The translations under genes were made by a program, and so were the position numbers. The notes beneath the pieces are model-generated. The model did no database searches. It was not told where the DNA came from and saw only the letters and a program-made list of their open reading frames with translations. A stretch of 64,000 nucleotides of DNA from a virus, in IMG/VR virus record IMGVR_UViG_3300034280_000973, positions 5,774-69,773 of that record; one strand, given 5' to 3'. Positions 42,710 through 55,913 of this stretch are shown piece by piece (position 1 is the first letter of the stretch; each line of letters begins with the position of its first letter).

Positions 42710-43863
42710 TAGTATCTTTCTGTAAAAAGTAAGAGTGTTGGGCTATTTGCCGGTGTAAAATACGTTACGAAATCGTTAAAACCACTAAATGTCATTTCGT
42801 ATTCAACTAGATCTCCGGAAGTAGATCCGCCAGATATATTAAATGACTGTATGACATTTTTCTCTCCGCAATCTATTATAAATAGATCATCACTTGTATT
42901 TGTGTAGTTTCTAGTTTTGAATGCTAATCTTATTTTGTATTTCTTAACAGTTCCGCTAGTAAATTCTGGCGTATTCAAAAAATTTATATTGGCTCCTTTT
43001 CGGGCTGTAAATCTTATTGAAGTTCTAATTGGAATAGGAATATATAATGTAGTCCATAAATTAGTTCCAACAGAGCTTCCTTTCCAAACGCCTTCGTCTA
43101 ATATATCTCCGTATTCTATTGCAGCCTCTGTCGATATTTCTGTGATTCCTAAAACTTCTATTCCGTCAAAAAAAGTATTGGTGTCTGTTATAGAATTTAG
43201 TATTTCCGGCAAGACAGTGTATGATCTGTCTATGTCTCGCGGGCGTATCAGTGTCCGTATTTTGTTTCCTGAATATTGTTCACCCAATGTTACCTGAGTT
43301 TTTTGGTAACCACCTTGATTTTCGAAATTTTCTACAGATTTTCCTTGAAAAGAAAGGCTTTCTAGAACTTTTTCTTTGGTTACAGCATAACTTATTGAAT
43401 TTAATAAACATCTTTTGTAAACTGACTTATGCAATTTTCTGCTACTCTGCAAGATTGATCCGTCATCAGTTTGATATAAAATAGATAAGTCAAACTCTTT
43501 TATGTCTTTAGATGCATTTCCAGTGATTGCTGTACCGAAATTTTTAATAAAAAAAGCATCTTTACTATTTATAGGTTTAGTATTATCTTTAAAGAATATA
43601 TGATGCAAAAAAGGCCCGACGCATTCTTTAGGACTTATAGATGGGTCTGAGTAATTTCCAATAACTCTTTCTAGGCTTAAGCTTATATTAAAGCTGTTGT
43701 TATACAAAACATCTTTAGGTTGGGATCTGCCGTAATCAAATACTGTAGTTGTATCCCAAGAATTATCTACCCCAATAGATTGTACTCCGTTGAGGTAGGA
43801 TGTTTCGTTTTCGTCAAGGCGTGTAAACAAACACCCCTGACACGCATAGAATATTCTATTCAT
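42709..43863 (-). CDS. Beta-rich protein, possible tail-tube-like structural protein
   Basis: NRIFYACQ..GVQSIG...GGSTSG..EYEMTF; fold is inference. Confidence 0.4.
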   Translation of the reverse strand: MNRIFYACQGCLFTRLDENETSYLNGVQSIGVDNSWDTTTVFDYGRSQPKDVLYNNSFNISLSLERVIGNYSDPSISPKECVGPFLHHIFFKDNTKPINSKDAFFIKNFGTAITGNASKDIKEFDLSILYQTDDGSILQSSRKLHKSVYKRCLLNSISYAVTKEKVLESLSFQGKSVENFENQGGYQKTQVTLGEQYSGNKIRTLIRPRDIDRSYTVLPEILNSITDTNTFFDGIEVLGITEISTEAAIEYGDILDEGVWKGSSVGTNLWTTLYIPIPIRTSIRFTARKGANINFLNTPEFTSGTVKKYKIRLAFKTRNYTNTSDDLFIIDCGEKNVIQSFNISGGSTSGDLVEYEMTFSGFNDFVTYFTPANSPTLLLFTERY

Positions 43864-44831
43864 TAATTAAGCCTTGTAATTTCACAAGATCCGCCAGAGC
43901 AAGCCACAGCAGCATAATCAGAAACATCTTTATACGAAGGTTTGTTTAGAACAGTTTCTAGAGATATTTCCTTCATTTGTCTGTTTATTGATTCCCATTT
44001 ATGAAATAAGTGAACATCTTTTAGACAATATATCATCTTTCTAATATCGTTCTTGAAGTAATTTTTAGCAAACTGTTTTGCCCGTCTAATCCAGTCTTTC
44101 TTAAGCAATACTTGCTCTCTAGTTCCAGTAACAGGAATACTTTTATCTAAAAGGCAGTCGCAGGCATTCCATAGATTGTTATTGAAATAATGTAATCCAT
44201 CAACAATAAGCCCGGAAGCAAACATAGATCCCTTACCATATGCTGACGCTATTTCTTCAAAAGTCATCACGCTTGTAAATGGTGCTTGATTAAAGTCTTT
44301 ATCGCCATAATCAGATATAAATGATACTGCCGTAAAATCTTTTCTATTATTCCAGATATAATCTGTTATGGACTTGCTATCGTCAATAATTACAGTACAG
44401 CTACAATTATGATTAGTAAGATTACATATTCCTAGTTCTCTGTTAGTTCCGGGAACGATCCAATTATTTTGAACTAGCTTGATTAGTTCTAAGTGCTTTA
44501 CACCTTTCATGTCCTTTTTGAACAATCCATTTTCAGGATTAACGATTGGCACGAAAACAACATAATCAGTATTATTTTTAGACCACACAGATTCTTCTAA
44601 AAGAAACGGCATTTCCTGTTCTAGAAATTTTGCAGTATCGGAATTTTTGTTTAACTGCATTATTCTAAAGTGCATTAAAGAATGAGCAGGGTGAATTCCG
44701 GACTCAGTCATTAAAACTACAGAGTTATGAGAAACTACCCCATTTTTTAATTGATAACTGTTTGTATTTGCAACCTGAATATCGCCAGTAATCGATAGTT
44801 TTAACGACTTAGTTATTTTTTTTATTCGCAC
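43863..44831 (-). CDS. nrdJ: Class II RNR C-terminal fragment with C-intein
   Basis: GTG start; 36-aa IntC ending VSHN|SVVL; SGIHP; C-terminal ACSGGSCEI. Confidence 0.9.
   Translation of the reverse strand: MRIKKITKSLKLSITGDIQVANTNSYQLKNGVVSHNSVVLMTESGIHPAHSLMHFRIMQLNKNSDTAKFLEQEMPFLLEESVWSKNNTDYVVFVPIVNPENGLFKKDMKGVKHLELIKLVQNNWIVPGTNRELGICNLTNHNCSCTVIIDDSKSITDYIWNNRKDFTAVSFISDYGDKDFNQAPFTSVMTFEEIASAYGKGSMFASGLIVDGLHYFNNNLWNACDCLLDKSIPVTGTREQVLLKKDWIRRAKQFAKNYFKNDIRKMIYCLKDVHLFHKWESINRQMKEISLETVLNKPSYKDVSDYAAVACSGGSCEITRLN
44724..44831 (-). mobile_element. Split intein C-half (36 aa)
   Basis: MRIKKI...TGDIQV...NGVVSHN|S. Confidence 0.88.
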
Positions 44832-45627
44832 TTGTTCTTCCTTTTTTAAAGCTTGGGTTTTCTTTTAAGAAATCATTGAAATTTAATTCTTTTTGTTGTT
44901 TTTTAGTATATTTATACGATTTTAACCCATCGTTATACCAAATAAATCCAGAATTTTTTTTACCGCCAATTTTACCTCTTTTTCTTTGTTCTTCTATTCT
45001 TTGTTCTTCCGGCATATTGTTTTTTTCAAAATATTTTTTACTAAATCTGCCGTTTAGTCCGCCCTTTCTAGATATTTCTTTTCTGGTGTCAGGATTATAA
45101 AACGCACTTATTTTTTTCAATTTAAGAGTTTTGTGCTGAATACTTCTTATTTCTTTATTAAATATTGCTCTATTCAATAATCTATTCACTCTTGCTGCAT
45201 TAATTCCGCCATTACTACATGCCTTAATCCTTTCTTTTTTGGATAAAGAAAAAATGCCAGTTTTATTTTTTAAACATAATAAACCAGTAATACTAGCTGA
45301 TATAGCTTGTTTCTTATGATTTTCCTCGATTTGTTCATGAGTTAATGACCCATGAAAATTTGTATGCATGTTTAAATAATCATCTTTTTTAGTAGCAATT
45401 TTTAATAATTTATTTTCATAATCTAATGCACTACATCTGTTTTCAAATTCTTTTAAAATTTTGAATGAAAAATCTTCTTTTCCAAAAAGTTTTATGAGTT
45501 GTTTTACTTGTTTTGAGGATGTGAAATATGTCAACCAAAAAAGCTTCGAATCACACCCTTTTGAATATTTAACTCCTATATATTTCAGTCCTGTTGTTTT
45601 ATTTTTTAAAAAATATACGTATGGCAT
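44809..45627 (-). mobile_element. Free-standing GIY-YIG homing endonuclease between split-intein halves
   Basis: YVYF...KYIG, YFTSS, WYNDG; AAGGAGG SD. Confidence 0.82.
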
Positions 45628-45669
45628 GTTAAACCCTCCTTTATTTTACTAGGCTTAATATGATATACC

Positions 45670-46005
45670 CTAAAAGCTTATTATTTCATCATTTTCTTTT
45701 AGGTCTTTAACAAGTTTCCATCCTTTATCAGTTAATAATTTATGATTTTCGGTAAAAGAATAAACTTGACCGTCTTCAAACTCTACTTCATATGTTTCAG
45801 ATAAACCGTTTATGTATAACAATTCTATACTTTGCTCATTATTATTTTTATCATAAACTTTTAAAGGTTTTTTCAAATTAAATGAAGTATCTGTAAAATT
45901 AATGGTTTCTGTATCAAAATTGGGATCGTCTAAGCAGTATTTAAAAATTTCTAATAATGTTAAATCACCAATGTTTGTTTTTATAATAGTATCGAATTTT
46001 GTACA
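45670..46005 (-). mobile_element. Split intein N-half (111 aa)
   Basis: CTKFDTII...FTENHKLLT..GW..VKDL..D.I then stop. Confidence 0.88.
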
Positions 46006-48654
46006 CGCATTTCCGCTCGGTTTCACACATGTAGTTCTAGCAGCTTGATTAATATCTATCTTAGCAGCTACTTTTTTATTTGTTTCTACAGCAACAGCAG
46101 CACCTTTGCGAAGCAACTCTTCGTTAAATAGTGCGGGATTATTCATCCAGCCAGTAATACTAACCCCAAGCAAAGCTTCTCTTCTGACTAGCTTTTCGGT
46201 TCTAGGAGATAGAAAAGGAAAATCAGTATATCCAGCCTGTAAAGTACCAAGTATGGCTGCGCCTTCACAAGCACGAAGAAATGATTCTTCAAGCGTTTTA
46301 CCGTTTTCGGGCACGCATTTTTCAGCATTTATTTCATTTAGATTACAAGCCTGTATTCCAAATAGATGAATATTTTTTCTAGTCCATTCTTCTACTTGTT
46401 CGTAAGGTATATCTTGAAGTATATCATGTGTGTCTACGGGAGTAAAGCCGATTTCAAAACATCTAGCTGCCGTGATACCGTTTGCTATCAATGTTCTGTT
46501 GTTATTTTCTTCTAAGCAGTAAACGTCTTCTTTACCTAAATAGTTAATGCTTACAACTTTTTTATATCTTAGTACATCTTTGTAACCCTTGAGATTGTTA
46601 AGTATATCGTTAGCTTTATTTATTTTTGCTTTATGTAAAAATGCAATATCTTCTATAAATTTACAAGATTGCTTATATCCATTTATACATAATCTATATG
46701 ATGCCTTACAATTATAATCCTGTAAGACTCTTTGTGAATTAGGAAGCTTTCTAGTTTCTTCCGGTAGTAAATCGTAGACAGATGCCAAAAATCCGATTTC
46801 TTGCAATATTAACGAAAGATCGTTTAGAAACTCCTTATTTGATTGAGTTATTCTTAAGGATATGCTCTTAGATGATTCTGTATAGTCTACATGGCCATCA
46901 GTAAAAAACATTCCGGCAACAAATCCAGCTTTAAAGTTTTTGCTTTTCTTGTAAAGCCAAGACAAATTATCTTTTTTTACTCCGAGTATATCTAAGTATT
47001 TCTTAAATCCTGTAGAAGCGAGTGTATATTTAGCAGAATTTCCAACTTGTGTTTGTAACTTAAATTTAATATCTGTAGATATTGGTTTTTTACCATCAGA
47101 ATATAATTCTTTAGATTCTATTCTTCTGGACATACTTTCTTTAAATATTTGTTCTATGCTAGATTTAGTAAATTCCAAATCTTCATTTTCACCCTCTAAA
47201 TCCTCCCATACGCTTATTCCGGCATCATCTTCGGTAATGTATCCGTCTCCTACACACATTCCAGATAAAAATCCGTCATGAAAATCTTCATCTTTTTTAG
47301 TTATTATATTTTCATCGCATGTAACTAATATATCATCGCCAATTTGAAGGCTTAAAAGTTCTTTCATACCCTGTTTAGTAGAAAATTTGTGATTTCCAGT
47401 CGCCTTAACTTTTCTACCGCAGGATAAAACAAGTTCGTAAATATCTACATTTTCACCTGTTTTTGCTACTTTACCAATTTTGTTATATTCAACACCTATA
47501 TTTGAAAGATCTGTATCCCAAGACTCGTGAGTTCCTTCTGCTTTGCCCTTAACTCTTTTATCTTGAACTATATAAATATCTTCCGTATCTTGTTTTTCCA
47601 TCATTTCTCCAAAAGTCATCCAACCCTTAGTTGTTAAAACTTTTGTGTCTATGGTAAAACATGGATTGAATACATCAAACCAAGTATTACAGAATACGAA
47701 TCCTAGATCGTTTGCTCCATCATTAATAGCTACAATATCATCGAAAAATTTTCTTTGAGATACTTCGTTTTCATCACATTTCTGTCTATGAATTAATACG
47801 GAATTATTAGATCTACCACGCTGAGGATTTTCTGTTCTCCAATTGCCTGTCTTAGCAAACATCATTTCTTGGTCGTTTGGATCTAAGATCATAGACAAAG
47901 CAGACCGCCTAACACCGCCGCTAAGAACAGCATCGGATGAATGGCATAATATATCAAAAACAACTATAGGACGCAGCTTTGGGCCTTGTGTAAGCATCCA
48001 ATGGTCTAATAACTTTTCTATCGATTCTAAAGAATTTTTTAAACCGTTAGGGCCGGGAGCTTTAAATCCACCGCTAATAAAAGCACCAGCCTCGCGTATT
48101 TGTGAATAATCAAATCTAATCTTGTATCCAGAATATTCAGGAAAAACTTGTCTATCGGTAAAATAAGAAGACATTAATACATCAACTGCATTTTTCCATC
48201 CTTCAATACTGTCGGGTATAACATATGTCTTTGTTCCTTTTTCTCTTTTTTGTATTTCAGGAAGCTGATTAACAAATGGAAGTAAAAGAGAAGCACCAAC
48301 GCCGCAACCGCACAAACCTAAATAAAGAACATCTCCAAAATTTCTAGGACTAACAAAATGAAGCGTCGTGCAATTGTACATACGCATGTTATGTCTCATT
48401 ATCTGGTCGTGTCTAAACTGTAGATTTCTTTGCGAGGCAAGAATAGTTCTTGACTTCATTAGTTCTAAAACTAAATCTAGCTCTTGTGAAAGATCAACGT
48501 TAGAATATTTCTTTTTGTGCCCGTTAACAATATCTTCGCAGGCTTCTTCCCAATTTTCATAACGATTAAGTTTTTTATTCCATTTAAAATAGTCACTATA
48601 AAGTTTCAAATCCGACAGAAACTTCTTGCCAAAATTCTTTTTTTCAGATGCCAT
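45670..48654 (-). CDS. nrdJ: Class II RNR N-terminal fragment with full intein and N-intein
   Basis: YNC, GCGVG, GGVRRSA, NP|CFEI, ACNLNEIN, LLGVSITG, TCVKPSGNA|. Confidence 0.92.
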   Translation of the reverse strand: MASEKKNFGKKFLSDLKLYSDYFKWNKKLNRYENWEEACEDIVNGHKKKYSNVDLSQELDLVLELMKSRTILASQRNLQFRHDQIMRHNMRMYNCTTLHFVSPRNFGDVLYLGLCGCGVGASLLLPFVNQLPEIQKREKGTKTYVIPDSIEGWKNAVDVLMSSYFTDRQVFPEYSGYKIRFDYSQIREAGAFISGGFKAPGPNGLKNSLESIEKLLDHWMLTQGPKLRPIVVFDILCHSSDAVLSGGVRRSALSMILDPNDQEMMFAKTGNWRTENPQRGRSNNSVLIHRQKCDENEVSQRKFFDDIVAINDGANDLGFVFCNTWFDVFNPCFTIDTKVLTTKGWMTFGEMMEKQDTEDIYIVQDKRVKGKAEGTHESWDTDLSNIGVEYNKIGKVAKTGENVDIYELVLSCGRKVKATGNHKFSTKQGMKELLSLQIGDDILVTCDENIITKKDEDFHDGFLSGMCVGDGYITEDDAGISVWEDLEGENEDLEFTKSSIEQIFKESMSRRIESKELYSDGKKPISTDIKFKLQTQVGNSAKYTLASTGFKKYLDILGVKKDNLSWLYKKSKNFKAGFVAGMFFTDGHVDYTESSKSISLRITQSNKEFLNDLSLILQEIGFLASVYDLLPEETRKLPNSQRVLQDYNCKASYRLCINGYKQSCKFIEDIAFLHKAKINKANDILNNLKGYKDVLRYKKVVSINYLGKEDVYCLEENNNRTLIANGITAARCFEIGFTPVDTHDILQDIPYEQVEEWTRKNIHLFGIQACNLNEINAEKCVPENGKTLEESFLRACEGAAILGTLQAGYTDFPFLSPRTEKLVRREALLGVSITGWMNNPALFNEELLRKGAAVAVETNKKVAAKIDINQAARTTCVKPSGNACTKFDTIIKTNIGDLTLLEIFKYCLDDPNFDTETINFTDTSFNLKKPLKVYDKNNNEQSIELLYINGLSETYEVEFEDGQVYSFTENHKLLTDKGWKLVKDLKENDEIISF
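46462..47661 (-). mobile_element. Full intein (400 aa) with LAGLIDADG, atypical C-terminal Arg
   Basis: CFTIDTKV...ATGNHKF...VGDG...FTDG...VYCL...IANGITAAR|C. Confidence 0.88.
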
Positions 48655-48824
48655 TATTTTTTTATTTCAATTTTTATATTTTTGAGGTTAATAGTCACTT
48701 CAACATGATCAGTATATTCTTTCACATCAACTAAGTCAATAATAGACTTGACTTTACTCACTTGTTCTTTTGTGAGTCCTAACTGATCTAGTGCCCGAGA
48801 GAGTAAATTATTTACTATGTTCAT
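48654..48824 (-). CDS. Small hypothetical protein (56 aa)
   Basis: Hand-translated MNIVNNLLSRALDQLG...; coupled to nrdJ start. Confidence 0.55.
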   Translation of the reverse strand: MNIVNNLLSRALDQLGLTKEQVSKVKSIIDLVDVKEYTDHVEVTINLKNIKIEIKK

Positions 48825-49055
48825 TTATTTTTTAAGATAGCCATTAGCCTTGACAGTATTTACTTCTTTGTGAACAGGTTCAGCATAAGTAATCTGATCT
48901 GTTTTATTTACATACTTTTCAACAAAAGCTAAAATATCATCCCAATCTAATGACATATCAACATTATCCCAAGCAAAATCAATACCCCTAGATTTATTAG
49001 CATTTCTAGCAGCAATAACAGTTTCTAGTAATTTTAATTCTTTTTCTTTATTCAT
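48825..49055 (-). CDS. Hypothetical protein
   Basis: ORF in operon. Confidence 0.6.
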   Translation of the reverse strand: MNKEKELKLLETVIAARNANKSRGIDFAWDNVDMSLDWDDILAFVEKYVNKTDQITYAEPVHKEVNTVKANGYLKK

Positions 49056-53355: not shown

Positions 53356-53866
53356 CTACTTTTTTGTTTAAATAACCTATATATTGGACGGTATAATTAC
53401 CGATCTTTAATTCATAAGCGGGGTATTTACCAAACTTTTTCCTGACGGATGTAGTTTCGTTTATTTCGACTACATTATAATCTAAAAGGCCCGGCAATTC
53501 TTCGGCTTTCCATTTTTCGCACAAATCACAATTGTTCGAAGAATAAAAATAAATAGTTGCTTTTTTTTCTTCTATAATCTGATCACCCAAATTAGCACAA
53601 AGCGGACATGGTGTTTTATGCCCATCGCCCTGAACTATGTACTTCAATCCCTTGCATTTTTTACATACTCCCGAATTATCAGGAACAACTGTTTCTTCTT
53701 CTTTTTCTATTTCAGGTTCAGAAACTATGATTTTGTCTATGTATTTTTGTATAACACTTTTTATTTCTACACGCCTTTTTTTAACAGATTCTGATTCTTC
53801 TCCAAAAGATATAGAAGGTAAAAATGTAAGTGTGAATATTAATAAGTATTTATAGTATCGCATCAA
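53324..53866 (-). CDS. Secreted zinc-finger/thioredoxin-like protein
   Basis: Signal peptide, CKKC..GDGH..CPLC, CDLC...YP. Confidence 0.65.
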   Translation of the reverse strand: MMRYYKYLLIFTLTFLPSISFGEESESVKKRRVEIKSVIQKYIDKIIVSEPEIEKEEETVVPDNSGVCKKCKGLKYIVQGDGHKTPCPLCANLGDQIIEEKKATIYFYSSNNCDLCEKWKAEELPGLLDYNVVEINETTSVRKKFGKYPAYELKIGNYTVQYIGYLNKKVVGDIYDKYKK

Positions 53867-55913
53867 ATAATTCCCAATTTATAGATTTGGCCGGAAATCC
53901 ATTAACGTTTCCGATGACCCAAGTTTGTTGCTGCCGAATCATTTGATAGGCAACAGTTGCTGTAACCCAAAAACTTCCATCGGGCTGATCATATGCTTTC
54001 GGGCCTGAATTCCAATCGGCCCAAGAGTTTAGTATTAAAAATAAAGTCTCGGAACTTCTAGTTTTAGTATCATCCATACCGCCGAAACACATGCAATGAT
54101 TCCAATTGCCTCTAGGGTTAGATATACCGTTTTTATCGCGTTTAGAAGAAAACCCAATATTACTTCCTACAACAACGCCATATCCATTATATATAGCATC
54201 TCTTATTTCTTCTACTGTTTTTCCTAAAGAAACTGTTAAAACTTTATTTGTATTTATTTCTGATATAACTGACTGAGGAACACCTGTTCTGCCCCAATTT
54301 ATACCAATTTGTGGATTATATTTGGATAGATCATATCTACCGTATTTACGACGTAAGGCTATTCCGCCTATATCCGAAAGAAAATTTACCGCCCGAGCAA
54401 CAGACATTCCCTGCCCGCCATGCCCTCTGTGACCATATATTACCTCGGTAGCTAATCTTCCTGCATATCCTTCTGCTTCTAAACGTTCTTCTATATCAGA
54501 AACTAAAGAAATTGTGGTTCCGTTTCTACATCCGTGCGAAGTACAGTTATGAACAGCTATGCCATTTGCAATAAACGAATGATCTTCTTCTACTTCTATA
54601 CAATAAACAGCGTCTTGATAATCAGATTCACTATTTGTAGAAACTTTAGCTAATAATCCAAACTCACATTTATGTAAAATTTGTTTTTTAGAACTATTTA
54701 TAATCAGGCCAGAAACCATGCATTCTGGAAATAATTTTAGTGCTTCATTTGAATATATATCTATTGTGTAAGAAGAATGCCTGTCTATGCGATCTTTTCT
54801 TTTTCTTACAGTATGTTGTATTTCTAAATCTTGTAATAATGAAGATATTCCAGATATTAATTTTTTCGATACAGACACTCCGTTTATTCTTGTTCTGGAC
54901 TTGTTGAAACACCCGTCACCATCTATCCATCCCCTGACTATTTCAATTTTAGATAAATTATTAAATTTATTTAAATTGTGAAGCTCTTTTGTATAACAGT
55001 TTCCGGAGACAAAATATTTTATAAATTCTACTAAGAGTCTACTGCTACAACTTACTACTATAACATTTTTATGAGATCTGTCATGGATAAATGTTTTTAA
55101 TCCAAATTTTTCATTAATTATTCTGCTTATATTTTTTTGTATATCTACTTCTTTAGAATTTAATGAAAAATCTACTCTACAGTTTTCAGATATTCCGCCT
55201 TCTGCACAGAAAATTCCTATCAACCATCCTATATCTTCATCTATTTTTATATATCTATTTACAACCTTTTTTGAGCCGAAATATCTTACGTGATTTTCAG
55301 ATACTAATGGTTGTTTCATCCTCTTGTTAGATTCTTTATTTATAAATAAAGACATGTCTAAAATATATTCATTTTCGTAAGAATTATTTTTAGGAATTAC
55401 CAAATAATCAGATTCTGTTATTTCGTCTGCACGCTTCCATTCAAAATTTTCATTATTTTTTGTTAAAATTAAATGGTCGTTAGTACAAGATATATTATTT
55501 AAATATCTGTATAATTTTATATTCCTTATTTTATTTCCGGAAGGATTTTTTTTGATAATATCTGTGACTGCTCTTTTATTTCCATAGTGGGATAATACAA
55601 AATCACCTATTTCAATATTTTCTATCGCTTTTAAAGTTCCGTCAGCCATTAAAACCATTGTTCCGGCAGTAAAACAATCGCCTGTGAGCTGGTTTTCATC
55701 AGATGCAAAATTTTTATCGTATTTTCTAACTAATTTATAAGGTAAAGCTATTTTACCTAAGCCGCTATCCTTTATTGCTTGTGCAGCATCGCCAAAAATT
55801 GGATATCTAAGAGATTGCAAGACTTTATCAAACTCTTGGCCATTAAAGAGCGTTGGATTATAACCATTTTCATAAGCTTTAATAAGCTCTTTTGTTGTGT
55901 TAAATATCGTCAT
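53850..55913 (-). CDS. Papain-like (C1) cysteine peptidase with intein
   Basis: QLTGD|CTSHG, WNHCM, ILNSW. Confidence 0.82.
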   Translation of the reverse strand: MTIFNTTKELIKAYENGYNPTLFNGQEFDKVLQSLRYPIFGDAAQAIKDSGLGKIALPYKLVRKYDKNFASDENQLTGDCFTAGTMVLMADGTLKAIENIEIGDFVLSHYGNKRAVTDIIKKNPSGNKIRNIKLYRYLNNISCTNDHLILTKNNENFEWKRADEITESDYLVIPKNNSYENEYILDMSLFINKESNKRMKQPLVSENHVRYFGSKKVVNRYIKIDEDIGWLIGIFCAEGGISENCRVDFSLNSKEVDIQKNISRIINEKFGLKTFIHDRSHKNVIVVSCSSRLLVEFIKYFVSGNCYTKELHNLNKFNNLSKIEIVRGWIDGDGCFNKSRTRINGVSVSKKLISGISSLLQDLEIQHTVRKRKDRIDRHSSYTIDIYSNEALKLFPECMVSGLIINSSKKQILHKCEFGLLAKVSTNSESDYQDAVYCIEVEEDHSFIANGIAVHNCTSHGCRNGTTISLVSDIEERLEAEGYAGRLATEVIYGHRGHGGQGMSVARAVNFLSDIGGIALRRKYGRYDLSKYNPQIGINWGRTGVPQSVISEINTNKVLTVSLGKTVEEIRDAIYNGYGVVVGSNIGFSSKRDKNGISNPRGNWNHCMCFGGMDDTKTRSSETLFLILNSWADWNSGPKAYDQPDGSFWVTATVAYQMIRQQQTWVIGNVNGFPAKSINWELFDAIL
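54546..55676 (-). mobile_element. Canonical intein (377 aa) with LAGLIDADG
   Basis: CFTAGT...CTNDH...CAEG...IDGDG...IAVHN|C. Confidence 0.9.

What the first reader, a model, noticed from the sequence alone, without database searches (positions are those of the whole stretch)
46462..47661. Intein ending in arginine at the catalytic cysteine of ribonucleotide reductase
Seen: a 400-aa intein splits the RNR motif NP|CFEI. It has Cys1, an intact TxxH block B and two LAGLIDADG motifs, but ends ...IANGITAAR|C (GCA GCT AGA | TGT). There is no penultimate His and no terminal Asn/Gln/Asp, and block F reads VYCL. AGA is two substitutions from any Asn or Gln codon, so a single base-call error is unlikely. 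Established: branch resolution needs side-chain cyclisation of Asn (rarely Gln/Asp), and the +1 Cys here is the thiyl-radical cysteine, so unspliced RNR should be inactive. Inference: since the rest of the gene looks intact, this may be an intein subclass with different C-terminal chemistry (e.g. Arg lactam formation or assisted hydrolysis). I know of no characterised example.
Basis: partly seen in the sequence, partly recalled or inferred. Interest (0 to 1): 0.88.

Follow-up and report, generated by a model that had tools for sequence, protein, structure and literature searches.

The report
Mobile phage RNR intein ending in arginine
The self-excising protein insert (intein) at the catalytic cysteine of this phage's ribonucleotide reductase really ends in arginine instead of asparagine, as does a whole conserved and mobile lineage of related inteins, so these inteins probably free themselves by a chemistry that has not been described.

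Summary
Observation confirmed. A 400-codon in-frame insert (46462-47661, minus strand) splits NP|CFEI of a class II ribonucleotide reductase (RNR) and ends ...ITAAR|C (GCA GCT AGA|TGT). An intein-free allele reads NPCFEIGF.

It is not a lesion. 52 of 56 word-search homologues end in Arg. Of 173 inteins extracted at this site, 73 end in R. All 66 full-length ones fall in one clade (support 0.998; median identity 35%). They share a signature: Cys1, TxxH, block-F Cys (66/66) and Glu (66/66), Arg at the block-F His position (65/66, never in 96 N/Q-ending relatives), terminal Arg, Cys+1. Two revertants to Q/N lost that block-F Arg as well.

The terminal Arg uses AGA, AGG, CGA or CGC in 19 viral contigs. 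dN/dS is about 0.05 for the intein and 0.065 for the N-extein. Two complete relatives carry no other RNR. So excision is needed, and succinimide formation is impossible.

Favoured mechanism (inferred): the Arg side chain cyclises to a six-ring lactam, as Gln does. Rival: the block-F Cys attacks the C-terminal bond. Five literature searches found no description. This scan noted the same lineage earlier on other DNA (at least six notes). New variant of a known kind; splicing is untested.

The parts
47662..48654 (-). N-extein of the class II (RTPR-like) ribonucleotide reductase, residues 1-331, ending ...NTWFDVFNP
   Evidence: ORF. phmmer hit to 1L1L (Lactobacillus leichmannii ribonucleoside triphosphate reductase), E 1.7e-9. 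dN/dS 0.065 against L003 and L004.
46462..47661 (-). The 400-aa Arg-terminated LAGLIDADG intein (ORF residues 332-731)
   Evidence: AlphaFold2 model with mean pLDDT 94.2 and pTM 0.93. Best Foldseek matches are TliVMA, PI-PfuI and PI-SceI inteins. dN/dS 0.046-0.054.
47659..47661 (-). Cys1 codon (block A nucleophile)
   Evidence: Cys in 162 of 162 aligned inteins.
47518..47526 (-). Glu46-Ser-Trp48, part of a short insertion specific to the Arg-ending lineage
   Evidence: E 88% and W 97% in the Arg class. The column is a gap in 79% and 73% of the Cys+N/Q class and in 86% and 84% of the Asp class.
47389..47400 (-). Block B Thr88-Gly-Asn-His91 (TxxH)
   Evidence: T 100% and H 100% in the Arg class.
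47242..47274 (-). LAGLIDADG motif 1 (residues 130-140, ..GMCVGDG) with acidic Asp139
   Evidence: D139 97% and G140 98% in the Arg class.
46894..46926 (-). LAGLIDADG motif 2 (residues 246-256, ..GMFFTDG) with acidic Asp255
   Evidence: Pfam LAGLIDADG_3, E 7.3e-12. D255 98%.
46495..46518 (-). Block F core Cys382-Leu-Glu-Glu385-Asn-Asn-Asn-Arg389: Cys at F:4, invariant Glu, and Arg at the block-F His position
   Evidence: C 66/66 and E 66/66. R 65/66 (one K), and never R in 96 inteins ending in N or Q.
46462..46464 (-). Terminal Arg400 codon (AGA), at the position of the canonical Asn (G:7)
   Evidence: Aligned with the N of VHN|C in P0055 and P0057. In relatives the codon is AGA 7, AGG 7, CGA 4, CGC 1 (19 loci).
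46459..46461 (-). Cys+1 codon (TGT). It is the C-extein nucleophile and, by the NPC.E motif, the thiyl-radical cysteine of the RNR.
   Evidence: Cys in 162/162. The assignment as radical cysteine is from recalled knowledge of class II RNR.
46006..46461 (-). Middle extein (residues 732-883), CFEIGF...TTCVKPSGNA
   Evidence: dN/dS 0.09-0.11.
45673..46005 (-). N-half (111 aa) of a split intein that ends the first RNR ORF (CTKFDT...TENH...)
   Evidence: Needed, with the parts below, to complete the same RNR.
44809..45627 (-). Free-standing GIY-YIG (SegE-like) endonuclease gene between the two RNR fragments
   Evidence: Pfam SegE_GIY-YIG, 31.6 bits, cut-off 25.
44724..44831 (-). C-half (36 aa) of the split intein, ending canonically ...GVVSHN|S
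43866..44723 (-). C-extein of the RNR (286 aa), ending ...ACSGGSCEITRLN
   Evidence: 883 + 286 = 1169 aa, the length of the unfractured relatives.

Best explanation
This is a working, mobile LAGLIDADG intein. It belongs to a distinct, old, phage-borne lineage whose members all end in arginine.

It sits between Pro and the catalytic Cys in the NP|C.E active-site motif of the phage's class II RNR. By recalled class II RNR structure this motif lies in the active-site finger loop. The enzyme therefore cannot work until the intein is removed.

Steps 1 and 2 are most likely those of class 1 inteins. Cys1 forms a thioester with help from block B Thr/His, and the N-extein is passed to Cys+1.

Step 3, cutting the Arg400-Cys+1 bond, cannot use succinimide formation. 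My favoured mechanism is that Arg400's own side chain is the cyclising nucleophile. Its N-epsilon sits at the same topological position as the N-epsilon-2 of a terminal Gln. Attack on its own carbonyl would give a six-membered delta-lactam and release the C-extein amine for the final S-to-N shift. The lineage-specific partners would position and deprotonate the guanidinium: Arg389 at the block-F His position, Arg at G:6 in most members, the invariant Glu385, and Cys382 at F:4.

Shown: the sequence, its conservation, the co-variation, the purifying selection, the mobility, and the lack of another RNR in complete relatives.

Inferred: that it splices (about 0.8), and the Arg-lactam route (about 0.45 overall; the confidence given for this explanation is that of the whole statement including the route).
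For: Family-wide feature.
- 52 of 56 word-search homologues (30-93% identical) end in Arg and carry the block-F Cys. The others: 1 ends in Gln, 2 end in HN, 1 is cut short.
- Among 214 block F-G matches in 194 of 196 proteins, 77 combine F:4 Cys with a terminal Arg and 0 combine F:4 Asp with Arg.
- 73 of 173 extracted inteins end in R.

One deep clade.
- All 66 full-length Arg-ending inteins fall in a clade of 68, support 0.998. The tree was built without the five signature columns.
- Pairwise identity is 22% at minimum and 35% at the median.

Selection for Arg at the protein level.
- The codon is AGA 7, AGG 7, CGA 4, CGC 1 in 19 of 19 viral-contig loci, all with an open frame.

Purifying selection.
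- Intein dN/dS is 0.046-0.054 (59 or 48 synonymous against 13 or 12 non-synonymous changes).
- N-extein 0.065; middle extein 0.09-0.11.

Need for excision.
- An intein-free allele reads NPCFEIGF.
- Two complete relatives (168.8 kb and 193.7 kb) hold one copy of this RNR, no NrdD and no class I small subunit.

Mobility and independent retention.
- Intein dS (0.24-0.30) is below N-extein dS (0.67) against the same relatives.
- The acidic LAGLIDADG residues are conserved.
- The lineage sits in at least 16 different C-extein starts (CFEI 24, CVEI 15, CGEI 12 and others).
- Three mini-inteins of 155-162 aa have lost the endonuclease but keep the full signature.

For a direct role of the Arg side chain.
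- G:7 is Arg in all 73, never Lys.
- The block-F partner tracks the terminal residue. It is R 65 / K 1 with terminal R; N 30 / H 11 / S 2 with terminal Q; H 28 / N 16 and others with terminal N.
- The two revertants inside the clade changed both sites together: P0183 R400Q with R389N, P0188 R400N with R389H.
- The nearest outgroup is mostly Gln-ending. Gln CAR to Arg CGR is a single transition, and the loci most distant from the window (26-30% identical: L016-L023) include the CGA and CGC users.
- Delta-lactam formation is the main side reaction of carboxyl-activated Arg in peptide synthesis (PMC7352207; start of abstract in the listing).
- Fold: the Hint plus endonuclease architecture is predicted with pLDDT 94.2.
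Against: - No splicing product, intermediate or mass has been observed. Everything about function is inferred from conservation.
- A protonated guanidinium is a very poor nucleophile. I know of no protein in which Arg cleaves its own peptide bond.
- The link between Arg and the block-F Cys largely reflects a single origin (one clade), so it is not many independent events. The only independent support is the two revertants, plus the absence of F:4 changes inside the clade against six outside (P about 0.03).
- The window's copy has Ala, not Arg, at G:6 (9 of 73 are AR). An Arg-Arg pair at the terminus is therefore not essential.
- I could not get coordinates of the model, so no distances were measured.
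- The homologue sample is the best hits to this query. It is enriched for the lineage and is not a census.
- The window's own record is only about 51% complete. 'Only RNR' rests on two complete relatives.
Confidence: 0.45

Rival explanations
1. The intein splices, but step 3 is done by the block-F cysteine. After branch formation, the thiol of Cys382 (F:4) attacks the Arg400-Cys+1 amide. This forms an internal thioester (thiolactone) and frees the C-extein amine. The arginines and Glu385 only tune the thiolate and stabilise the oxyanion. A combined route is also possible, in which the thioester is then resolved by Arg lactam formation.
For: - Cys at F:4 is invariant in the lineage (66/66). It shows 0 changes inside the clade against 6 outside (P about 0.03), and no Asp+Arg combination was seen (0 of 214 rows).
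- Precedent: in class 3 inteins Cys F:4 directly attacks an amide bond. In the model of the Bethlehem DnaB intein it lies 2.6 A from the +1 side chain and close to both junctions (PMC2807308, passages).
- Asp F:4 hydrogen-bonds Asn G:7 in the Pho RadA intein (PMC4031507, passages).
Against: - F:4 Cys is also present in 52 aligned relatives that end in N or Q, and in this window's other, HN-ending intein. Cys at F:4 therefore does not by itself replace cyclisation.
- If Cys did the cutting, the terminal residue need not be strictly Arg, nor co-vary with the block-F His position.
- Both His residues that could protonate the leaving amine near this junction are replaced.
Confidence: 0.28
2. The intein is removed, but not by its own side chains. 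Either a water activated by Glu385 hydrolyses the bond, or a host or phage protease cuts after Arg. The freed N-terminal Cys then captures the Cys1 thioester, as in native chemical ligation.
For: - Glu385 is invariant with terminal Arg (66/66).
- 59 of 73 members end in Arg-Arg, which resembles a dibasic site. The chemistry after cleavage would work.
Against: - The lineage occurs in viral contigs whose fetched loci range from 27% to 45% G+C. By inference this means many different hosts, so a common protease is unlikely.
- G:6 is not always basic; it is Ala in this copy.
- The tight coupling of Arg389 with Arg400 points to an internal active site.
Confidence: 0.07
3. The intein does not splice, or hardly does. 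The RNR is dead or only conditionally made, and the element persists as a selfish homing endonuclease carrier.
For: - No experimental evidence of splicing exists.
- All three residues usually credited with step 3 (block-F His, G:6 His, G:7 Asn) are replaced.
- The window's record is incomplete (51%).
Against: - Exteins are under strong purifying selection (dN/dS 0.065-0.11).
- All RNR landmark residues are present: NPC.E, the Cys of ..MYNCTT.., the Cys of ..ACNLNE.., and the C-terminal CSGGSC.
- Two complete relatives have no other RNR.
- The Hint blocks are conserved down to 22% identity.
- Mini-inteins without an endonuclease keep the signature, which a purely selfish carrier would not explain.
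Confidence: 0.12
4. Artefact or other decoding. A base-call or assembly error; AGA read as something other than Arg; or removal of the insert at the RNA level as an intron.
For: None found.
Against: - Independent assemblies carry the same GCA GCT AGA TGT (L006 and L007).
- Relatives use AGG, CGA and CGC at the same site.
- Contigs of three other runs span the junction with no indel or joint.
- Rfam found no intron in 43500-49000. The only hit was a snoRNA model at E 0.7, below its cut-off.
- The insert is a high-confidence intein fold in frame.
Confidence: 0.01

Closest known systems
[quoted passage not shown] Named from PMC4031507, passages read.
   Same: Cys1, block B TxxH and a +1 nucleophile, with no Asn at G:7. 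Cyclisation would give a six-membered ring. In the tree the nearest relatives of the Arg lineage are F:4-Cys inteins ending in Gln or Asn at the same RNR site.
   Different: The terminal residue is Arg, which has no side-chain amide or carboxyl. The block-F His position is Arg and G:6 is Arg or Ala. The review lists only Asn, Gln, Asp and Glu as terminal residues.
Class 3 inteins (mycobacteriophage Bethlehem DnaB intein; WCT triplet), PMC2807308
   Same: Cys at block F position 4, phage-borne, LAGLIDADG endonuclease. They show that F:4 Cys can attack a splice-junction amide.
   Different: Here residue 1 is Cys (100%). B:12 is Phe, not Trp. G:5 is Ala, not Thr. +1 is Cys, not Ser/Thr. The C-terminus is Arg, whereas class 3 inteins keep Asn.
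Bacillus phage SPbeta (SPBc2) bnrdE intein and its Staphylococcus SPbeta-like relatives
   Same: The closest match in 50,697 deposited phage records: about 24-26% identity over the whole intein. Same insertion point before the catalytic Cys of an RNR, and a LAGLIDADG intein.
   Different: The host gene is a class Ib RNR (SNL|C). Block F reads VYDT with Asp and His, and the intein ends ...IVTGN|C with Asn. No record of that collection held a member of the Arg lineage (25 records matched, all below 30% identity).
Canonical inteins at the same site of the same RNR family (P0241, P0273, P0279; P0055, P0057)
   Same: Same NP|C insertion point. In P0241, P0273 and P0279 the N-extein is 65-66% identical to the window's.
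   Different: They have VYDC...VHN|C, that is Asp at F:4 and His-Asn at the end.

Membership tests
Intein (Hint-domain protein-splicing element) | In-frame insertion in a conserved host-protein motif, absent from close intein-free alleles | tested here: met
   P0211 (769 aa, 89% identical N-extein) reads NPCFEIGF. 112 of the 120 best N-extein homologues are shorter than 800 aa.
Intein (Hint-domain protein-splicing element) | Hint fold and splicing-domain profile | tested here: met
   Pfam Intein_splicing 66.6 bits against a cut-off of 35.8. AF2 pLDDT 94.2. Foldseek top hits are TliVMA, PI-PfuI and PI-SceI, E 3e-17 to 1e-10.
Intein (Hint-domain protein-splicing element) | Demonstrated excision with ligation of the exteins | not testable with these tools
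   Needs expression and mass spectrometry. Only indirect support from selection on exteins and intein.
Class 1 inteins | Cys/Ser/Thr at residue 1 and block B Thr..His | tested here: met
   Cys1, Thr88 and His91. 100% in the lineage.
Class 1 inteins | Cys/Ser/Thr at +1 | tested here: met
   Cys+1. 162/162.
Class 1 inteins | C-terminal Asn (rarely Gln, Asp, Glu) that cyclises in step 3 | tested here: not met
   Arg400. 73 of 173 site-mates end in Arg. The list of accepted residues is from PMC4031507.
Class 1 inteins | Penultimate His (G:6) and block-F His assisting step 3 (common, not universal) | tested here: not met
   Ala399 and Arg389 here. In the lineage these positions are R 82% and R 98%.
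Class 3 inteins (WCT) | Non-nucleophilic residue 1 | tested here: not met
   Cys1. Definition from PMC2807308.
Class 3 inteins (WCT) | Trp at B:12, Cys at F:4, Thr at G:5 | tested here: not met
   Phe93 (B:12), Cys382 (F:4, met) and Ala398 (G:5): one of three.
Class 2 (KlbA-like) inteins | Ala1, with Cys+1 attacking the N-terminal junction directly | tested here: not met
   Cys1 is invariant.
Bacterial intein-like (BIL) domains | No +1 nucleophile. Type B also lacks similarity to intein block G. From PMC4031507, passages. | tested here: not met
   Cys+1 is present, and block G aligns with canonical inteins.
LAGLIDADG homing endonuclease (intein-borne) | Two LAGLIDADG motifs, each with its acidic residue | tested here: met
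   Pfam LAGLIDADG_3, E 7.3e-12. D139 and D255 are 97-98% conserved. Fold hits to I-DmoI and PI-SceI. Cleavage activity was not tested.
Class II (B12-dependent, RTPR-like) ribonucleotide reductase (host protein) | Sequence similarity to a solved class II RNR and the NPC.E active-site motif | tested here: met
   1L1L, E 1.7e-9. NPCFEI is restored in intein-free alleles. Pfam RNR-II_ins_dom scores only 24.3 bits, below its cut-off of 27, and PF02867 does not detect it.

The most novel reading that the evidence does not exclude
A fourth mechanistic class of inteins, in which the branched intermediate is resolved by the terminal arginine itself. Its guanidino N-epsilon would attack its own backbone carbonyl to give a delta-lactam. 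The Arg would be activated by a co-evolved Arg/Glu/Cys constellation in block F. This would be the first natural case of peptide-bond cleavage by an arginine side chain.
Probability: 0.4. Interest if true: 0.95.

Novelty: new variant of a known kind. Interest (0 to 1): 0.85.

Why it matters
Reviews describe every intein class as finishing splicing by cyclisation of Asn, or rarely of Gln, Asp or Glu (PMC4031507, PMC10663303).

A large, conserved, mobile lineage that ends in arginine would mean one of two things. Either a new self-cleavage chemistry exists, with Arg as an intramolecular nucleophile or a block-F Cys acting at the C-terminal junction. Or there is a so far unknown way to mature an essential enzyme.

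It can be tested directly with one expression construct and a mass spectrometer. Three natural mini-inteins of 155-162 aa are ready-made subjects for structural work.

A new C-terminal cleavage chemistry could also widen the intein toolbox, for example in its junction requirements and in the form of the intein C-terminus it leaves. It also affects annotation: intein finders that demand a terminal Asn or Gln would miss or misplace these elements.

Tried and rejected
- Sequencing or assembly error: rejected. Independent contigs give the same codons, and relatives use four Arg codons.
- Codon reassignment of AGA: rejected. CGA and CGC occur at the same site.
- RNA-level removal: no intron family was found by Rfam in 43500-49000.
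- Class 3 membership: rejected.
- Alternative cut NPC|F...RC|V: rejected by alignment to canonical site-mates.
- Other RNR genes. PF02867 found nothing in the own record, not even this gene, so that negative says little. I then searched with the N-extein itself and with NrdD and R2 profiles in the own record and three relatives.
- Cellular genomes. One scan of GTDB representative genomes gave 9 confirmed loci. None belongs to the Arg lineage: one canonical RNR intein (VYDL...AHN|C), and eight whose N-junctions are not NP|C and in which the block F/G pattern search found no match. The scan is pattern-based, so absence is not proven.
- Deposited phages: 25 records matched, all below 30% identity. 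The two I read (SPBc2 and a Staphylococcus SPbeta-like phage) end in GN|C.
- Model coordinates.
- Read laying. Only contigs were available. X3 covers small parts only. The table of base differences was truncated, so it adds little beyond showing no indel or joint.
- Middle extein alone gave no PDB sequence hit.
- Literature. Searches found no paper describing an intein with a C-terminal Arg. In searches no paper that mentions inteins also contained 'C-terminal arginine', 'C-terminal Arg' or 'terminal arginine'.
- Papers read as passages only: PMC4031507, PMC10663303, PMC2807308, PMC2677866 and bioRxiv 10.1101/2025.01.02.630785. PMC7352207 was seen only as the start of its abstract in a listing.
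- Supplementary tables were closed. The InBase lists in the supplements of PMC2807308 could in principle hold an Arg-ending entry that I could not see. Subscription-only papers are not in the library.

Full report
**What is there.**
- The finding lies in a minus-strand ORF, 45670..48654, of 994 aa.
- Its first 331 residues match the class II ribonucleoside triphosphate reductase of Lactobacillus leichmannii (1L1L, E 1.7e-9).
- Residues 332-731 (window 46462-47661) translate without a stop. They begin CFTIDTKV and end NRTLIANGITAAR. The next codons read CFEIGF.
- The Arg codon is AGA at 46462-46464. The +1 Cys codon is at 46459-46461.
- Pfam finds an intein splicing domain (66.6 bits, cut-off 35.8) and a LAGLIDADG domain.
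- An AlphaFold2 model built on 75 aligned sequences has mean pLDDT 94.2. It is closest to endonuclease-bearing inteins: TliVMA, PI-PfuI and PI-SceI.
- The record is an IMG/VR virus contig of 69.8 kb, estimated 51% complete.

**The boundaries are exact.**
- The closest intein-free allele, P0211 (769 aa, 89% identical over the N-extein), reads ...NTWFDVFNPCFEIGFTPVDTHDK.
- Of the 120 best N-extein homologues, 112 are shorter than 800 aa and 8 are 1000 aa or longer.
- Three of the long ones (P0241, P0273, P0279) carry a canonical intein at the same point (VYDC...VHN|CFEI).
- The insert therefore sits between Pro and the Cys of NPC.E. By recalled knowledge of class II RNRs, this Cys carries the thiyl radical.

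**It is a lineage, not a lesion.**
- A word-indexed search with the intein gave 56 proteins. Of these, 52 end in Arg before Cys and have Cys in block F. One ends in GQ, two end in VHN with Asp in block F, and one is cut short.
- An exhaustive HMMER search of 1.84 billion representatives gave 1444 hits at E up to 0.001. I saw the best 150.
- Over all 196 stored proteins, 214 block F-G matches were tabulated:
  - F:4 Cys with terminal Arg: 77
  - Cys with Gln: 39
  - Cys with Asn: 39
  - Asp with Asn: about 40
  - Asp with Gln: 14
  - Asp with Arg: 0
- I could delimit 173 inteins at this site. 73 end in R, 54 in N and 46 in Q.
- This sample is the best hits to the query, so it is enriched for the lineage.

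**Signature.** In an alignment of 162 full-length inteins (66 Arg-ending, 52 Cys+N/Q, 44 Asp+N/Q), the Arg class has:
- Cys1, Thr88 and His91 at 100%
- Cys382 in 66/66
- Glu385 in 66/66
- Arg389 in 65/66 (one Lys)
- Arg399 in 54/66 (this copy has Ala)
- Arg400
- a short insertion with Glu46 and Trp48 that is a gap in most other inteins
- Met99 where the others mostly have Lys, Arg or Trp

Position 389 is where the Asp-class inteins have their block-F His (55% His, 34% Asn). It is never Arg in the 96 inteins that end in N or Q.

**Phylogeny.**
- A FastTree tree was made without the five signature columns. It puts all 66 Arg-ending inteins in one clade of 68 (support 0.998). The clade is nested among F:4-Cys inteins that end in Gln or Asn.
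- Pairwise identity inside the clade goes down to 22% (median 35%).
- The two non-Arg members look like reversions. Both changed position 389 as well: P0183 has R400Q with 389 Asn, and P0188 has R400N with 389 His.
- More generally, the block-F residue tracks the terminal residue: R with R, mostly N with Q, mostly H with N.
- F:4 changes 6 times outside the clade and 0 times inside. At the outside rate that has P of about 0.03.
- Because the Arg ending arose essentially once, the Cys-Arg association is not many independent events. I do not count it as such.

**Selection and mobility.**
- In 19 of 19 loci fetched from viral contigs the frame is open and the last codon is Arg: AGA 7, AGG 7, CGA 4, CGC 1.
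- Against two 97%-identical relatives, the intein has 59 or 48 synonymous and 13 or 12 non-synonymous differences (dN/dS 0.046 and 0.054).
- The N-extein has dN/dS 0.065. The middle extein has 0.09-0.11.
- Another pair (L011/L014, 89% identical) gives 0.088.
- Intein dS (0.24-0.30) is less than half the N-extein dS (0.67). This fits recent transfer of the intein between genomes.
- The lineage sits in front of at least 16 different C-extein starts.
- It includes three mini-inteins of 155, 158 and 162 aa, plus intermediate sizes, that have lost the endonuclease but keep the whole signature.

**Is the enzyme needed?**
- The landmark residues of the RNR are all present across the three gene pieces.
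- In the own record and three relatives, the N-extein query finds one gene each. No NrdD or class I small subunit is found. Two of these relatives are rated 100% complete (168.8 kb with terminal repeats, and 193.7 kb).
- So in those phages the intein-bearing gene is the only RNR detected.
- This, together with the purifying selection on the exteins, is the argument that the intein must come out. It is an inference. No product has been seen.

**Mechanism.**
- Reviews state that step 3 uses cyclisation of Asn, or of Gln, Asp or Glu, helped by a His next to it and a His in block F (PMC4031507; PMC10663303).
- Here all three positions are replaced.
- I favour Arg400 itself as the cyclising group, for these reasons:
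  - Its N-epsilon is at the same distance along the chain as Gln's amide nitrogen, so the ring would be six-membered.
  - The nearest relatives end largely in Gln. Gln to Arg is one transition (CAR to CGR), and CGA and CGC are used by loci far from the window.
  - The terminal residue is Arg in 73 of 73, never Lys.
  - The block-F partner changes in step with the terminal residue, including in two reversions.
  - Activated arginine is known to form a delta-lactam readily (PMC7352207, listing).
- The weakness is the very low nucleophilicity of a protonated guanidinium. The Arg cluster, Glu385 and Cys382 would have to lower its pKa or take its proton.
- The main rival is attack of Cys382 on the Arg400-Cys+1 bond.
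  - Class 3 inteins show that Cys F:4 can attack a junction amide and lies next to the +1 residue (PMC2807308).
  - However, F:4 Cys also occurs in 52 relatives that end in N or Q, and in this window's other, HN-ending intein.
- My odds: Arg route 0.45, Cys route 0.28, hydrolysis or a trans-acting protease 0.07, no splicing 0.12, artefact 0.01.

**Comparison with what is known.**
- It is an intein by fold, blocks and insertion behaviour.
- It fails the class 1 test at the terminal residue.
- It fails the class 3 test at residue 1, B:12, G:5 and +1.
- It fails the class 2 test at residue 1.
- The closest element in deposited phage genomes is the SPbeta bnrdE intein and its Staphylococcus relatives (24-26% identity). 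Those have Asp and His in block F and end in GN|C.
- One pattern-based scan of 185,579 species-representative genomes found no member.
- Five literature searches and the passages read from five papers gave no description of an Arg-ending intein. Supplements and subscription journals were out of reach.

**Earlier notes of this scan.**
- At least six notes on other genomes describe the same kind of intein and reach the same reading.
- They are AI notes. I did not use them as evidence.
- One of them named the SPbeta intein, which I then checked myself.

**Verdict.** The splicing chemistry is open and easy to test.

Noticed in passing
window 43863-46005 (minus strand): The same RNR is also 'fractured'. 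The first ORF ends in a 111-aa split-intein N-half. A GIY-YIG (SegE-like) gene follows, then a 36-aa C-half ending canonically in VVSHN|S, fused to the last 286 residues of the RNR. The arrangement is polymorphic among near-identical phages. L003 (complete 168.8-kb genome) and most members of the P0002 cluster have an unfractured 1169-aa gene. The window and L004 have the 994-aa fractured form. It resembles the fractured NrdJ loci of Dassa et al. 2009 (PMC2677866), but the split point here (KPSGNA|S) is far from the active-site Cys.
   Followed up: partly
window 53850-55913 (minus strand): A second intein in the window, inside a 687-aa protein, at ...QLTGD|C...VHN|CTSHG. Its block F also has Cys at position 4 (AVYCIEVEEDHSF), but it keeps the block-F His and a canonical His-Asn end. 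So F:4 Cys together with Cys1 is not rare in this phage and does not by itself imply an Arg ending.
   Followed up: partly
window 46462-48654 against L003 and L004: Synonymous divergence is 0.67 in the N-extein but only 0.24-0.30 in the intein and 0.23-0.24 in the middle extein. This suggests the intein and its downstream flank were exchanged between these phages more recently than the rest of the gene, as a homing and co-conversion tract would be.
   Followed up: partly
proteins P0164, P0162, P0169, P0165, P0148, P0092, P0157: Relatives of this intein also sit at the equivalent ..SNL|C.. site of class I RNRs. All of these end in N or Q. None of the 73 Arg-ending inteins was found in an NL|C context: 72 have NP|C and one has KP|C.
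   Followed up: no
public runs X1, X2, X4 (coded), laid on window 46300-47800: Contigs 90-99% alike span the whole stretch in a pond metagenome, a lake-water metagenome and one further metagenome from three studies. Close relatives of this phage and its intein are therefore found repeatedly in fresh water.
   Followed up: no
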